Origin: Haliotis rubra
Taxonomy: Eukaryota
Assembly (NCBI RefSeq): GCF_003918875.1
Contig: NW_025767697.1
Location: 186,001 to 250,000 of the forward strand
Length of the DNA stretch: 64,000 nucleotides
Reading direction: 5' to 3'
How positions within the stretch are numbered: position 1 is the first letter of the stretch; the number at the start of each line of letters is the position of its first letter. This document shows positions 36,001-63,900 of this stretch, piece by piece. The position numbers are program-made.

Positions 36001-39000
36001 AATGACTTCCATCAACCTCCGCCTCAGTCACTTCTTACATCAAGTATGGGTTGGTGAAAACTAATTTAAACTTAGATCACTTTTATGTAATTTCGTGCAT
36101 GATTTCCATGCGTCAATAATAAAGTTTTGTATGGCCGTTGCACATGTCATCCCAGTTTTCCATCAAGATCACACTGAGAAATAGTTACATAATCTTTAGC
36201 AGACATCCTGAAGGCAAACTGAATTTTGATACACCTGTAATGCATGTCAGTAGAAACATCAATAATTTGCAGTTCGTGAGGTTGTACATTCGTGGATGTA
36301 CCCTTGCGAGTCTGAGGAAAATGGTTAACAACAAGAGCTACGTTCAAAGCACAGGAACCCGTTATCGCTATGCAGGTTAAACATAGACCATACATCTACA
36401 CACATCTAAATAGAGTAGCACTATATTTATATACATGACGTGTGTGTAGATCTATGGTTTATGTTTATCCTAGATAGCGACAACGGGTTCCTGTGGTTCA
36501 AAGCCGTAGAGGACGGTGATAGATCAGTAAACAAACATTAAAACCATTCGATCTTTATCGGCTTACAACTTGTATGGATGTCAGGAAGCTAAGCTAAAGG
36601 AGCCAATACAATGTCATGTGTCAATGTATTGTGATGTGCTGACAGCGCAATTACAGCTGAGGTTATGTACATACTGTACGTCAGGATCGAATATCCAAGA
36701 ATGGCACCTTATGTGACTGCTATATGCAGCCATATTAAGCTGATGTCTCACCTTTGATGGATTTGATTCACTGCAGCAGCAGCATCGGTAACATTGCAGT
36801 TGTTAATGAGTTGTACCTTCATGGCTTCACGACAGTACTGCTTCCCATTACAATTGACGACTAGGCCCTGCTGGCTGCTGGCGAGAAGCTTATTGCACGA
36901 CCCAGCAGATTTCACACGACATGTCGCTGTATCTCCATCCCCATACACCTCGTGCAAGACATGTATCCATTCACCGACAGAACACTGAAGCTGTACTGTA
37001 AAGCTTTTCGACAAGTCCTCTATACATCTGTTTCCAGTTCTGGTGACACCAGAAGATAATAATTCGTTTAATGTCATCTATGCCGGGCTAAGTATGATCC
37101 TATTTTGGAGTCACCTTCGAATTTATAGTATACTTAGCATAATATAGCTGCATATATTACTCTTAGATAGTAACACAATGCTATCTCTGGTAAACCCCAA
37201 TTTGTTTTGAGTCAGCGAAAATACAAAGAGCGTGCGTAATATTTATGCAATTTTATCATATGCACCAAGATTACTTATGGTGGGAAATCAATTAGTTTGG
37301 TTGTAAAGTTGGGTTGAGTTCATTCTCTTGCTGTGGATTACAACACAATAAATCATTTGTTGTACTGACAGTAATGTATGAAGGTTGTCAAAACCATTCA
37401 TTTCCAGACGAAGCTACTTACTCTATATCTTCTTTGGTATTAGGTATTCGTTCTTCTTTAATCGGATAACTACGACTAAACCAAATAAGCCTGCTTCTGA
37501 TTTATCTTGACCTGTATACTAAGAAAGCAACAAAACATACTCTGCTTTCAATAAAGTGTAAGTGTAACACTACCGGCTTGTGACGAGGGACCAGAATCCA
37601 CTGATCAGTGCAGAACACCGCCCCAGCACCCAATGCGTTTCTTTATTTGTCTACACAAAACACGTACATGCGGGTTTCGCCCGTTCATGTAGGAAGCATC
37701 TACGAATCACCTGTTTACCTGACACAATAACTGGACGTGTTGTGACATTACTGAAATGCGGAACTGATAAACCCAAATCATTCATACCTACACGCCCAGT
37801 AGGAGATATCTATCCTTCAGAATGTCCTAGCATATACAAGACATAATAATGTTAATACCGAGTGAATACAGTCTTATACTGGCATGAAGGATATTTAAGA
37901 CAGTTTTAAGAATGACAAATACGATTTTTATGCAAGGTTTTCAAATGGTATGTTTGTGTACTATATGTGACTACCATATATACATTTGGTATAGCTATTT
38001 ATCGATTTCAATTATTCCTAATTCATAATGTTTATGCCTCAAATAATATGTTTACGTGTAATGCCTGGTAGATTTGTCTGGGAGGTTATCGACATAGAAT
38101 CAGGAACATAATCAACTGCAATGAGCGATCAAGGTTTAGACGAAACTGTGGCAGAGGTCAATCGACATCATGTCAACCTCATTCTTACTAGTTGATCCTG
38201 CTGTGATCTTGGGTAGCTGAAACAGACATATTCACATTCACATTCACCACTCTACTCTTCAACTGTAGTGTCATACCCAGAACTCTCATATATATCATTG
38301 TCAACCATCCCTTTAACTGTACAGCCACTGACATCTTCTTCTCCATGATACAAGTCATCTTCAGGCATGCTTTCTTCATCCTGGTTGCCGTAATCTGTAC
38401 TGACATCATGGTTCTCTGTAGTAGGAGGTCCCCCATTGTATACATCGTTGTCGGTCATATGACATGTTGATTTTGTACCGTTTCCCCGATCAAACAGAAA
38501 CATGTCCATTGATTCAAGTTGATCAGTGTCGGCTTTCAGGTCACCTGTTCCAGGTGATTCAGTGTTCTCAATATCTCTCTCTTCATTCGAGCCAGTCAAG
38601 TTATCTGGTGACTGAATATATTTCGGTTGCTTCATCGTAAATGTGTTGTTATCATTCATGTTTAATCTGGAGCTACGTGACAAGACTGTAGAGAACCCGT
38701 CCTGTTCTCGGAACGCTGGTTCGTTATTTGCCTCTTGAATCTGCATTTAATGACAAATCCTCATTTCAAGGCACAAATGTTGGATCTATGATGAAATAAT
38801 GTTGGCTGCCATCATGCGTTCGTGAACCATTATGATGTTTGAACGGAATGAATTTTATTGGTGGAGCATTTTGAGTGCGTGAGTGAGAGCGGTTTCACGC
38901 CACTTTTAGCAATATGCCAGCAGTATCCCAGCGGGGGACACCAGAAATGGTCTTCAAGTATTGTATCCATGTGGGGAACATTTTGATGTCTGCTTGGGAG

Positions 39001-60900: not shown

Positions 60901-63900
60901 TTGTCCAGACTCCATTATTTAGAGACCGCAACCACATAGCTGGGATATTTGTAGTTTTACAAACAAACAAAACTATTAAACCTTAATGTGAGTGGAATTA
61001 ATATGTAAAGAATAATTATTGAGTAACATAATATATCAAAACAATTCATTCTGGGGGGATAAGGATGACGGCTGGTACAATGTTGAAGCGTAGAGCATGT
61101 CAAAGCGTCAGTCTGTGACTGGTTGATGTGAAACTGTGAATCCGAGAAAGTCAATTAGTTAAAGATCTTGTATTTATTGAATAAAATAGACATATAATTA
61201 ACGACCAGACGTAAACCAAGTCTTCTTAGTCAGATCAGTACTCCTTACTTACAGACATATTTCACGGTCTGTACTGAAAGGGATGAGAGTAGAGTGAAAA
61301 TATATTTCAGCTGCGGACAGAATCAAACGAGCCTTGGTCAATATTTCTGTAAGAGATTAATTAATTTTAATAAATTGTACATTTGAAGAAATATGGTATC
61401 TATTAAGTTTGACAATAAGGTTGTCATGAAAAATCTACCTTTATGTCGATGTAAACAAAACCGGCGAGATGGTATTTCCTTTTCCCTGCTGACCTTTAAA
61501 TGGGGTACCTATTTGTACATACAGTCCAGTTGCTGCATCAAAGGGGAACGTGAAATGTGTCGCAACGTGTATTAACCCTTGACGTCACTGTATTGTAGCA
61601 GTAATACGTCGTCAGTAAAATAACGCTGCACTTGAGATATCTTAGGAAATACGTAGATCTACACACGTTAACTGATTGACAATTAACGCACTGACATAAA
61701 GACATTAATATTATGGTTTTCTTTTTTTGTTTGTATGGTTAAAATATTTTTAAAGTTTCGAATGAAATGTATGCTATAATTTATACAATGTCATATATAC
61801 TGTATATTATGTAATGTCATGAATGTTTTGGGTTTGTTTGCTGTTTCACGTCGTATTCAGGAGTATTTTGTCTTTATAACAGCGGTCTGTAAGATTTGGA
61901 CCAATTCGGGGATTGATATCATGAACCTCGATCTACGCAAATTGGATAAAATAACCCATAACAGCTGGTATGGGCTGGCGAAGACTAATTCCAACGCGGA
62001 TCTACTATACCTTTGTACTTTTATCTAACACAGTGAATGATTTCATGCTTCCATAATTAAGTTTTGTATGACCGTTGCACATATCTCCCAAGTTTTTTCT
62101 ATTCTAAGACTACACTGAGAATGGTTTAACATTCTTTGTACAGATCAGCAGACATCCTCAACTCAATTTTTATGATACACTTATAATGCATTTCAGTAGC
62201 AATATCACTAAATTTTGTAATTTTTGAGACTGATACATTCGTGGGTGTAATTCATCGAGTTTGTGGGAACGAGTGGTTGACAGCACGAGCAACAAGCCGT
62301 AGAGGGGCTAAACACATGTGTCATTGAATGTATTGTGATATGCTGACAAGGACAAGGGCAGCATAGGTTATGTACATTGTGTACGTCTCGGTCGAATGTC
62401 GAAAGATGTGGTGCATCAGGCATGCAGGCATATGAAATTCACGTCTCACCTTTAATACAGTTGTACTTTACTTCAGCAGCAGCAGCAGCGGTAATTTTGC
62501 AGTTGTTGATGGGCTGTACCTGCATGTCTTCACGACATGACGGCTTCCCATTACAGTTCACAACCAGGCCAGACTGGCTGCTAGCGAGGAGCTTACTACA
62601 AGCGTGGGCAGATTTCAGACGACATGTCGCTGCATCTCCATCCCCGTACACCTCTTGCACGACATGTATCCGATCATCGACAGAGCACTGAAGCTGTACT
62701 GTAAAGACTTTCGTCAAATCTTCTATACATCTGTTTCCAGACACCTTTGAATATAATGTAATATCGTTCAGTCAAACACACTTGATACCATACACTCAAA
62801 GATATTACTCCAATCGGAGGTAAAATACTGTTTGTTTGTTTGTTTTTGCTCCCTAAAACATCTTTGAGACATACATACATGTAATTCTTTGTGATATGAA
62901 ACATTATTAAATCAATCAATTACAGCTGAAAACTAAATTTCCCAATAATATTTACATTTTACATTGATATACATTTATATAGCGCTAATATCCAGTCTTG
63001 AGAAGACTGCTCAAGAGCGCTGCTGAACTCCGTATGCAATACTGAACAAATGAGTTTTTAATCTGGATTTGAAAGTAGTGAATGTCTGTACTGATCGAAG
63101 AGAGAGGGGTAATTTGTTCCACAATACTGGGCCGACAACCTGAAAAGACCTTTCACCAAATGTCTTGGTCCGACTGACTACTGTCTGGCACATGTGTTGT
63201 TGTGATGACCTCAGATGGCGTGTTGGTTGATATTCTTGCACAAGGTGTGAGAGAAAAAACTGGTGCCGTGTTGTGCAAGACTTTGAACATCAATACCAAT
63301 ATTTTGTAATGGATACGTTTTCGGATGGGTAACCAGTGCAATGTCATCATAACTGGTGTTATATGCTCTGTACATGTCTTCTTTGTGCGTGTCACAACTC
63401 GGACAGCTGAGTTCTGGAGTCTCTGTAACTTGCTCAGAAGATATTATGGAATCCCCTGCAACAGCAGAGCATTGCAATAGTCAACCGAGATACTACATAT
63501 ATTTTGCATCAATGTTTGCAGCAGTTTGCTGGTTGATGTACTTCCTGATTAAGCCTATGTTGCGGATGAAATAGTAGGCATTCTTGCACATTTTATTGAC
63601 GTGCTTTTCATGGCTAATAGTGTATCAAATATCACCCCAAAGACTGCGAGCATGATCAGTGGGTTCAATGATACACTCATTAATTTCAGGTAGTGTAGAA
63701 ACCAACCTTTGTCGTGTTGAGCTTGAGACAGAGAATGAGCATTTCTGTTTTGTCTTGATTCAGCTTCAGGAAATGTCTGGTCATCCATTTTGGATATCAG
63801 CAATACAATTTTGAATTGCCAAACATGTCAGCATGCATCGCAGGATGACGACTTCTGCAGAGGCTTGAAACCTAGGTAGAATTGGGTATCTCTGCGTACA

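What the first reader, a model, noticed from the sequence alone, without database searches (positions are those of the whole stretch)
36752..62744. Three different knock-outs of the lectin exon while every main CUB exon stays intact
Seen: the SUEL exon is broken by different lesions in C (acceptor AG lost, net 2-nt loss at the 3' end), D (7-nt deletion) and E (8-nt deletion at the 5' end). All four 315-nt CUB exons and most mucin exons are open with splice sites. The SUEL exon is symmetric (phase 1-1), so skipping it preserves frame; gene D would then encode a complete 314-aa SP-CUB-mucin-TM-tail protein. Inference: repeated domain loss yielding lectin-less receptors or decoys, or CUB exons kept intact by gene conversion.
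[Added by the scan's program, not by the reader: the finding's places include an assembly gap (unread letters, written N; its length is only estimated) at 53218 to 53394. Whether the letters on both sides are continuous or in frame is not known: test that first.]
Basis: partly seen in the sequence, partly recalled or inferred. Interest (0 to 1): 0.65.

Follow-up and report, generated by a model that had tools for sequence, protein, structure and literature searches.

The report
Abalone lectin-receptor array with broken copies
This is a tandem cluster of four abalone surface-receptor genes: one copy is a dead pseudogene, one has a single small deletion in its sugar-binding exon, and one only looks broken, which is an ordinary picture for a fast-evolving gene family.

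Summary
The window is blacklip abalone (Haliotis rubra), not human. On the minus strand lie four tandem paralogues (B, C, D, E). Each encodes signal peptide, SUEL-type lectin, CUB-like domain, mucin stalk, membrane anchor and a tyrosine-rich tail.

All the reported lesions are in the sequence at the stated places. The four 315-nt CUB-like exons are open with AG/GT. "Three knock-outs of the lectin exon" is too strong:
- **C** is a multi-lesion pseudogene. Besides its two lectin-exon lesions, its tail exon is frameshifted and no signal exon is found.
- **D** has one lesion, a 7-nt deletion. Every other exon is intact, and skipping the lectin exon would keep the frame. I found no evidence of skipping.
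- **E**'s lectin domain is fully open with 8 cysteines. A RefSeq model reads an exon with the same shortened 5' end in phase 0 after a signal exon one base shorter. That makes a compensated pair (-1, -8).

The CUB-like exons have lower synonymous divergence than the lectin exons (0.08-0.13 against 0.18-0.43) and no indels. This fits homogenisation plus selection against indels. The assembly gap lies in an intron, away from these exons. Nanopore assembly error cannot be excluded.

The parts
17095..17388 (-). Gene B lectin (SUEL-type) exon: 294 nt, intact, 8 Cys, AG/GT, phase 1-1
   Evidence: Pfam SUEL_Lectin 24.8 bits against a cut-off of 31.4. PDB match to the latrophilin-like RBL domain 8suf_E, E = 9.7e-4.
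36752..37049 (-). Gene C lectin exon: 298 nt, acceptor AG changed to TG, 2-nt loss near the 3' end, eighth Cys lost
48026..48318 (-). Gene D lectin exon: 293 nt, 7-nt deletion removing the second Cys, splice sites intact, premature stop if included
62450..62744 (-). Gene E lectin exon: 295 nt, 8-nt deletion right after the acceptor plus a 3-nt insertion. Open with 8 Cys when entered in phase 0.
   Evidence: Residues 24-81 of RefSeq model P0020 are identical to 62744-62571.
13470..13784 (-). Gene B CUB-like exon, 315 nt, open, AG/GT
   Evidence: Fold match to CUB domains.
31122..31436 (-). Gene C CUB-like exon, 315 nt, open, AG/GT
43370..43684 (-). Gene D CUB-like exon, 315 nt, open, AG/GT. Identical to residues 122-225 of RefSeq model P0020.
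59134..59448 (-). Gene E CUB-like exon, 315 nt, open, AG/GT
54182..54502 (-). Second, divergent CUB-like exon: 321 nt, open, AG/GT, but both Cys and the SPGFP motif are lost. No matching second lectin exon lies upstream.
17927..17981 (-). Gene B signal-peptide exon, 55 nt, donor in phase 1
48641..48710 (-). Gene D signal-peptide exon, 70 nt, donor in phase 1
42999..43154 (-). Gene D mucin exon 1. The equivalents B 13204-13049, C 30841-30680 and E 58869-58711 are all open and differ only by in-frame indels.
42619..42738 (-). Gene D mucin exon 2. C 30260-30138 and E 58362-58240 are open. B 12678-12570 is 109 nt and out of frame.
41379..41460 (-). Gene D transmembrane exon (C equivalent: 28949-28868)
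40381..40588 (-). Gene D tail exon with tyrosine motifs, open to the normal stop
   Evidence: Closest database protein is P0025 at 99%; none is identical.
28467..28757 (-). Gene C tail exon: frameshifted relative to D and P0042, so the tyrosine-motif part is read out of frame
8283..9746 (-). Gene B long acidic tail exon with repeated NDxY motifs. Identical to residues 366-853 of P0020.
53218..53394 (.). Assembly gap of 177 N, in intron-like sequence between the divergent CUB-like exon and a small mucin exon

Best explanation
The region is a tandem array of a Haliotis-restricted family of type I membrane glycoproteins. Each has a signal peptide, a SUEL/rhamnose-binding-type lectin domain, a CUB-like beta-sandwich, a Ser/Thr-rich stalk, a membrane anchor and a cytoplasmic tail with tyrosine motifs. 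I infer these are glycan-recognising surface receptors; this is not shown.

The array evolves by birth and death with exchange between copies, and the four copies are at different stages:
- **B** keeps an intact lectin.
- **C** is a dead pseudogene: the lectin-exon acceptor is lost, 2 nt are lost near its 3' end, the tail exon is frameshifted, and no signal exon is found.
- **D** is a very young pseudogene or null allele with a single 7-nt deletion. Its transcript would normally include the exon and meet a premature stop.
- **E** is not knocked out. Its 8-nt deletion is paired with a 1-nt shorter signal exon (a net 9 nt), so only the stretch between the two changes is rewritten.

The CUB-like exons are all open for two reasons. 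They are the least diverged part of the unit, which is inferred to reflect homogenisation between copies. They also tolerate amino-acid change but not indels.
For: **Species and family.** 42 of 42 hits to the CUB-like exon are Haliotis proteins, from H. rubra, H. asinina, H. cracherodii and H. rufescens. In 1.84 billion representative proteins only 18 match at E <= 0.001. RefSeq model P0020 matches window exons exactly over 827 of 853 residues.

**C.** Its tail exon is read in two frames relative to D and P0042. No signal exon turns up in the 1.25 kb upstream. That space holds a frameshifted relic of another tail exon. C also has the most lineage-specific changes in the lectin exon: 27, against 9-16 in the others.

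**D.** Six of its seven exons have AG/GT and stay open when phases are tracked. Its closest relative P0025 has an intact lectin, so the deletion is recent.

**E.**
- Its lectin exon is open with 8 Cys in phase 0.
- P0020 enters an identical 58-residue exon start in phase 0.
- P0020 residues 16-23 match D's signal exon codon by codon when that exon is read to end on a codon boundary. Two residues are identical and six need one base change each.

**CUB-like exon.**
- dS is 0.083-0.131, against 0.178-0.429 for the lectin exon.
- It has 0 indels where about 4-4.6 are expected from the lectin exon's indel-to-substitution ratio, P = 0.01-0.02.
- Flanking introns are mostly unalignable although the exons are 87-94% identical.
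- Informative sites favour different copy groupings in different exons.
Against: - E's signal exon is outside the window. The compensation rests on one computed RefSeq model. Its residues 82-84 match neither E nor D, so its lectin exon may belong to a further copy.
- E as assembled has no recognisable transmembrane exon between 51.7 and 58.1 kb, so E may be defective downstream.
- dN/dS of the CUB-like exon is 0.49-1.26. D's lineage shows 13 non-synonymous to 2 synonymous changes. That looks like relaxed or diversifying evolution rather than conservation.
- The tract tests are marginal. The best is p = 0.001 uncorrected among 12 tests, and it lies in the lectin exon.
- No expression data were available, so skipping of D's exon is not excluded.
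Confidence: 0.55

Rival explanations
1. One reading: the lectin domain has been shed repeatedly and adaptively. The broken symmetric exon is skipped, giving lectin-less receptors or decoys made of signal peptide, CUB, mucin stalk, membrane anchor and tail.
For: - The lectin exon is phase 1-1, and its neighbours join to a glycine codon either way.
- D is otherwise complete: 951 nt, 316 codons.
- The lectin-exon acceptor is purine-rich and looks weaker than the CUB acceptor (by eye).
- 4 of 6 frame-breaking lesions lie in the lectin exon, P = 0.03.
- Two models elsewhere start inside the lectin exon: P0019 in H. rubra and P0022 in H. asinina. One, P0036, has no lectin.
Against: - C is also broken in its tail and lacks a signal exon.
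- E's lectin is open and probably read.
- 0 of 43 models join a signal peptide to the CUB-like domain. P0019, P0022 and P0036 have no signal peptide.
- 15 of 15 LOC124264670 isoforms keep the lectin.
- D's splice sites are unchanged, so inclusion is expected.
- The statistic falls to P = 0.09 without E.
Confidence: 0.1
2. Some or all of the small indels are errors of the assembly, so fewer copies are truly broken.
For: - The published H. rubra assembly used about 30x Nanopore reads, two Racon rounds and one Pilon round. It merged two assemblies, used RNA-seq-guided scaffolding and purged haplotigs. Two animals contributed data (passages of PMC6774278).
- Short-read polishing is unreliable inside near-identical tandem paralogues (my general knowledge).
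- B's +1 in mucin exon 2 is a change in an A run, the classic nanopore error.
Against: - The 7-nt, 8-nt and 2-nt changes are not homopolymer-length changes.
- The 8-nt change is matched by a second, compensating change in another exon of the RefSeq model, which two random errors would rarely produce.
- C carries many other changes typical of real decay.
Confidence: 0.15
3. The array works as one transcription unit with interchangeable cassettes. Transcripts start at an upstream copy and splice into downstream copies, so a broken exon in one copy is simply bypassed.
For: - P0020 combines a lectin exon of E/D type, D's CUB exon, and B's stalk, anchor and tail.
- The 15 LOC124264670 isoforms combine 3 N-terminal cassettes, 2 CUB exons and 3 anchor-plus-tail versions, as a-a-a, a-a-b, b-b-b, b-b-c and c-b-b.
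- Every lectin, CUB-like and mucin exon I phased is phase 1-1.
Against: - These are computed gene models. Multi-mapping reads in near-identical paralogues, chained to maximise the open frame, give the same picture.
- Each copy that can be checked (B, D) has its own signal exon, and the copies have their own tail exons.
Confidence: 0.1

Closest known systems
SUEL / rhamnose-binding lectin (RBL) domain, Pfam PF02140, as in the latrophilin N-terminal domain
   Same: About 95 residues with eight cysteines in the usual spacing. The Pfam alignment covers the whole profile. The only PDB sequence match is the RBL domain of latrophilin-like protein 1.
   Different: Scores stay below Pfam's curated cut-off: 19-25 bits against 31.4. 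The motif reads YGD here; from memory, classical RBLs have YGR. Sugar binding is untested.
CUB domain (Pfam PF00431), as in neuropilin a1, C1r/MASP CUB2, PCPE-1 and TSG-6
   Same: The predicted all-beta fold matches CUB domains. All 16 PDB matches with E <= 0.001 are CUB domains, with TM-scores of 0.55-0.66. The first Cys pair and the exon phase (1-1) are typical.
   Different: No Pfam CUB match even at E <= 10. No sequence bridge to CUB through remote relatives: 0 of 10 distant hits carry PF00431. There are only two cysteines. Model confidence is modest (pLDDT 61).
Birth-and-death multigene families of invertebrate lectin-type receptors, such as expanded C-type lectin repertoires in bivalves (PMC10140915, search listing and abstract only)
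   Same: A lineage-restricted tandem expansion, intact genes mixed with pseudogenes, fast amino-acid change, and signs of exchange between copies.
   Different: I did not find the domain combination (SUEL, CUB-like, mucin stalk, membrane anchor, tyrosine tail) described in print. Function and expression are unknown.
Variable/constant exon clusters such as clustered protocadherins or UGT1A (recalled, not searched)
   Same: This applies only under the novel reading: RefSeq models join 5' cassettes of one copy to 3' exons of another.
   Different: Each copy here has its own 3' exons. The evidence is computed models, not cDNA.

Membership tests
SUEL/RBL lectin domain (PF02140) | Pfam profile match above the curated gathering score | tested here: not met
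   4 of 4 lectin-exon ORFs match the full profile, but at 24.8, 23.6, 22.1 and 19.4 bits against a cut-off of 31.4.
SUEL/RBL lectin domain (PF02140) | Eight conserved cysteines (four disulfides; the pairing is recalled) | tested here: met
   B and E have 8 Cys. C has 7, the last one lost. D loses the second through the deletion.
SUEL/RBL lectin domain (PF02140) | Sequence similarity to a solved RBL domain | tested here: met
   The single PDB hit is 8suf_E, latrophilin-like protein 1, E = 9.7e-4, covering residues 16-96 of 97. The match is weak.
SUEL/RBL lectin domain (PF02140) | Binds rhamnose or galactose | not testable with these tools
   Needs a binding assay.
CUB domain (PF00431) | Pfam profile match | tested here: not met
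   0 of 5 CUB-like exon ORFs match any family at E <= 0.01. There is no PF00431 match at E <= 10 for B, for the divergent exon, or for two full-length relatives.
CUB domain (PF00431) | CUB beta-sandwich fold | tested here: met
   AlphaFold2 model from a 17-sequence alignment: pLDDT 61.1, pTM 0.58. Of the Foldseek PDB matches, 16 of 16 with E <= 0.001 are CUB domains, TM 0.55-0.66. The model is of modest confidence.
CUB domain (PF00431) | Four cysteines forming two disulfides (recalled) | tested here: inconclusive
   Only the first pair is present (Cys5 and Cys34 of the exon). The divergent exon at 54 kb has neither.
Skipped cassette exon | Symmetric phase, with flanking exons that join in frame | tested here: met
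   The ancestral exon is 300 nt, phase 1-1. D's other exons are open with phases tracked.
Skipped cassette exon | A transcript or model with the skip junction | tested here: not met
   0 of 43 retrieved protein models join a signal peptide to the CUB-like domain. RNA-seq was not available.
Unprocessed pseudogene | Disabling lesions in more than one part of the gene | tested here: met
   Met for C only: acceptor lost, -2, tail frameshift, no signal exon. D has one lesion. E has none proven.
Gene conversion between paralogues | Locally reduced synonymous divergence and mosaic tracts | tested here: inconclusive
   dS in the CUB exon is 0.08-0.13, against 0.18-0.43 in the lectin exon. Among 12 pairwise tract tests the lowest p values are 0.001, 0.016 and 0.020, uncorrected. 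Groupings are discordant between exons, on 5-9 informative sites each.

The most novel reading that the evidence does not exclude
The whole array is a combinatorial receptor locus. The lectin, CUB-like and mucin exons I phased are all phase 1-1. Transcripts that start at an upstream copy can therefore splice into the CUB, stalk and tail exons of downstream copies, as the RefSeq models P0020 and LOC124264670 X2-X20 suggest. Broken exons would be bypassed, and lectin, CUB and tail modules re-assorted into many receptor forms. Under this reading the 'knock-outs' are silent, and the unit of selection is the array.
Probability: 0.1. Interest if true: 0.7.

Novelty: new member of a known kind. Interest (0 to 1): 0.3.

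Why it matters
If the reading holds, this is a clean small example of a lineage-specific receptor family turning over. One array contains a dead copy, a copy one mutation away from function, and a copy rescued by a compensating frameshift across an intron.

It also warns that "broken exon" calls need the neighbouring exon's phase, and that open exons (such as the divergent one at 54 kb) do not prove function.

For abalone biology, the family is a candidate set of glycan-sensing surface receptors that three literature searches did not find described. It may bear on immunity or cell recognition in a farmed and disease-hit genus.

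Tried and rejected
- **Cluster look-up.** I could not see whether any isoform uses B's own lectin and CUB exons or skips D's lectin.
- **Signal exons of C and E.** A motif scan, tblastn and blastn over 37050-38300 and 62745-64000 gave only chance-level hits.
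- **Transmembrane exon for E.** A hydropathy scan of 51.7-58.1 kb found none, while the same scan found those of B, C and D.
- **Rescue of C by an upstream AG.** Read by eye: the frame fits only a phase-0 entry, and the 2-nt loss still breaks the exit.
- **Rescue of D.** By the duplicated donor at about 47791: the length becomes a multiple of 3 but the early stop remains. By a cryptic acceptor 58 nt into the exon: this is in frame only in D but would remove the first two cysteines. There is no evidence for either.
- **Sequence bridge from the CUB-like domain to Pfam CUB.** A whole-library profile search gave 18 hits. The distant ones are unrelated repeat proteins, and 0 of 10 carry PF00431.
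- **Explaining P0020 residues 82-84.** No splice inside the E and D exons gives them, and no fitting coding site exists in the window.
- **Literature on the family.** Searches found nothing. Supplements of the assembly paper were not opened.
- **Not done.** The joined spliced model of D (or of any copy) was not built or searched; all searches were exon by exon. The bacterial/archaeal genome collection and the phage, plasmid and E. coli collections cannot hold this locus and were not searched.

Full report
**What the window is.** GC content is 33-45%. All genes of interest lie on the minus strand. A search with the CUB-like exon of copy B returned 42 proteins. All 42 are from abalones: Haliotis rubra, H. 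asinina, H. cracherodii and H. rufescens. RefSeq model P0020 (H. rubra LOC124265002 isoform X4, 853 aa) matches window exons exactly over 827 of its 853 residues. The window is therefore H. rubra, not human. A profile of the five CUB-like exons found only 18 proteins at E <= 0.001 among 1.84 billion representatives, so the family is narrow.

**The gap.** The only N run is 53218-53394.
- On the minus strand an (ACAG)n-like repeat borders its low side. A small mucin exon starts about 120 nt further down.
- No frame with family similarity runs into the gap.
- Paralogue P0001 maps collinearly across it. Residues 413-541 lie above the gap and 607-647 and 665-958 below it. About 65 mucin residues map to neither side.
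- The published assembly used RNA-seq-guided scaffolding (passages of PMC6774278). If that step made this join, it is of the kind that can be wrong in a gene family.
- Continuity is therefore unproven. No lectin exon or main CUB exon is near the gap.

**Anatomy.** Four tandem units (B, C, D, E) share the following exons:
- a signal-peptide exon;
- a lectin exon (ancestral length 300 nt);
- a 315-nt CUB-like exon;
- two mucin exons;
- then either a short set of transmembrane exon plus tyrosine-motif tail (C, D), or further mucin exons, a transmembrane exon and a long acidic tail with NDxY repeats (B).

The lectin, CUB-like and mucin exons I phased are phase 1-1.

**Domain identity.**
- The lectin exon matches Pfam SUEL_Lectin over the whole profile but below the curated cut-off (19-25 bits against 31.4). 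It has eight cysteines in B and E. Its only PDB sequence match is the RBL domain of latrophilin-like protein 1.
- The "CUB" exon has no Pfam CUB match even at E <= 10. There is no sequence bridge through remote relatives.
- A modest AlphaFold2 model (pLDDT 61) matches CUB domains in 16 of 16 PDB hits at E <= 0.001. "CUB-like" is fair. Membership by sequence is not shown.

**The observation.** The DNA alignment and the exon table confirm every lesion.
- B's lectin exon is 294 nt and intact.
- C's is 298 nt, with the acceptor AG changed to TG and 2 nt lost near the 3' end.
- D's is 293 nt, with a 7-nt deletion.
- E's is 295 nt, with an 8-nt deletion at the 5' end plus a 3-nt insertion.

The four CUB-like exons are 315 nt, open, with AG/GT. 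Mucin exon 1 is open in 4 of 4 copies and differs only by in-frame indels. Mucin exon 2 is open in 3 of 4. B's has an extra A in an A run plus a 15-nt deletion, and RefSeq's model skips it.

**Copy C.** The lectin is not the only casualty.
- The tail exon is frameshifted relative to D and to P0042, so the tyrosine-motif part is read out of frame.
- In the old frame I also read a stop by eye from the alignment.
- No signal exon is detectable in the 1.25 kb upstream. That space holds a frameshifted relic of a long-tail exon.
- C has the most private changes in the lectin exon, 27 against 9-16.

C is a pseudogene as a whole.

**Copy D.** The signal, CUB-like, two mucin, transmembrane and tail exons all have AG/GT. 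They stay open when phases are tracked: 951 nt, 316 codons plus a stop. I did not build or search the joined model; all searches were exon by exon. The 7-nt deletion is the only lesion.
- The closest database protein, P0025 from another contig, has an intact lectin and a 99% identical tail. No database protein carries D's exact tail. The deletion is therefore recent, and D's 3' exons are in none of the protein models the search returned.
- D's lectin-exon splice sites equal B's. Inclusion and a stop about 38 codons in is the default outcome.
- None of 43 family models joins a signal peptide to the CUB-like domain. The four models with a truncated or absent lectin lack a signal peptide.

**Copy E.** Read from its normal acceptor in phase 0, the exon is open with all eight cysteines.
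- P0020 residues 24-81 equal this exon's first 58 codons. They are entered in phase 0 after a 23-residue signal exon that is not in the window.
- The last eight residues of that signal exon match D's signal exon codon by codon when D's exon is read to end on a codon boundary. Two residues are identical and six are one base away.
- That is what a 1-nt shorter signal exon would give. The sum -1 and -8 makes -9, so the frame is restored.

Caveats:
- P0020 residues 82-84 fit neither E nor D. Its lectin exon may belong to a further copy outside the window with an E-like 5' half and a D-like 3' half.
- No protein contains the whole of E's lectin or CUB exon.
- I found no transmembrane exon for E.
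- A Tc1/mariner element and a degenerate second CUB-like exon lie downstream.

**Is the pattern more than chance?**
- By length, 4 of 6 frame-breaking lesions in the lectin exon gives P = 0.03, or 0.09 without E. Zero in the CUB exon gives P = 0.18-0.23.
- The CUB exon has no indels where about 4-4.6 are expected from the lectin exon's indel-to-substitution ratio, P = 0.01-0.02.
- dS is 0.083-0.131 in the CUB exon and 0.178-0.429 in the lectin exon. dN/dS is 0.49-1.26 and 0.33-0.67 respectively.
- D and E carry 13:2 and 11:4 private non-synonymous to synonymous changes in the CUB exon.
- Introns next to the exons are mostly unalignable, while the exons are 82-94% identical.
- Informative sites favour B+D/C+E in the CUB exon (4 of 5) and B+E/C+D in mucin exon 2 (6 of 6). 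They are mixed in the lectin exon (4, 3 and 2 of 9).
- Of 12 tract tests the lowest p values are 0.001 (B-C, lectin exon), 0.016 and 0.020 (CUB exon), uncorrected.

Together this fits exchange between copies and a CUB-like domain that changes residues freely but not its length. It does not show strong purifying selection.

**Assembly quality.** The assembly rests on about 30x Nanopore data with one Pilon round, merged assemblies and haplotig purging. B's +1 looks like a nanopore error. The 7-, 8- and 2-nt changes do not. They need raw-read confirmation.

**RefSeq models across copies.** P0020 joins a lectin exon of E/D type, D's CUB exon, and B's stalk and tail. Fifteen isoforms of LOC124264670 mix three N-terminal cassettes, two CUB exons and three tails. 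This is either real inter-copy splicing or an artefact of multi-mapping reads. It is the basis of the novel reading.

**Literature.** Three searches found no description of this abalone family. I read passages of PMC6774278 and PMC9334734. For the other papers I saw search listings and abstracts only. Supplements were not seen.

**Verdict.** The sequence facts are right. The biology is an ordinary birth-and-death array with one neat compensated frameshift and one single-lesion copy worth an RNA check.

Noticed in passing
window 57117-57800 (-), element about 56.6-57.8 kb: A Tc1/mariner-type transposase ORF (HTH_Tnp_Tc3_2 and related Pfam hits) sits in E's intron between mucin exon 2 and the 55.8-kb exon.
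   Followed up: partly
window 54182-54502 (-): A second, divergent CUB-like exon is open with AG/GT but has lost both cysteines and the SPGFP motif, apparently through a compensated shift. Paralogues P0001 and P0042 have a second lectin exon before it; none is present here.
   Followed up: partly
window 38139-38832 (-): A frameshifted relic of the long acidic tail exon, 82.7% identical over 1.26 kb to 50367-51632, lies between D's last exon and C's lectin exon, where C's signal exon should be.
   Followed up: partly
window 47543-47843 and 47778-48078: A tandem duplication (93%) in D copies the last 53 nt of the lectin exon, its donor site and the start of the intron.
   Followed up: partly
window 12570-12678 (-): B's mucin exon 2 is out of frame: one extra A in an A run plus a 15-nt deletion, 109 nt in all. 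The RefSeq model skips it. The +1 looks like a nanopore-type error.
   Followed up: partly
window about 22000-25540 (+): Another mucin-like gene lies on the opposite strand between B and C. It has internal repeats (22923-23784) and tail ORFs carrying repeated IYE motifs. No Pfam match.
   Followed up: no
window 606-674 (-): A short exon resembles the signal peptide of P0042, a type-2 family member. It is probably the start of a further family gene running off the window.
   Followed up: no
window 6153-6925 (+) and 63011-63830 (-): Transposable-element ORFs: one with a GIY-YIG-like motif (label recalled), and LINE-like C-terminal ORFs just upstream of E's lectin exon.
   Followed up: no
window 34910-35793 and 44036-44543: A shared repeat (86-87%) lies in the lectin-to-CUB introns of C and D.
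   Followed up: no
protein P0020, residues 82-84: Three residues of the RefSeq model match neither E nor D, although the flanking 58 and 37 residues are identical to them. This suggests a recombinant lectin exon in a copy outside the window.
   Followed up: partly
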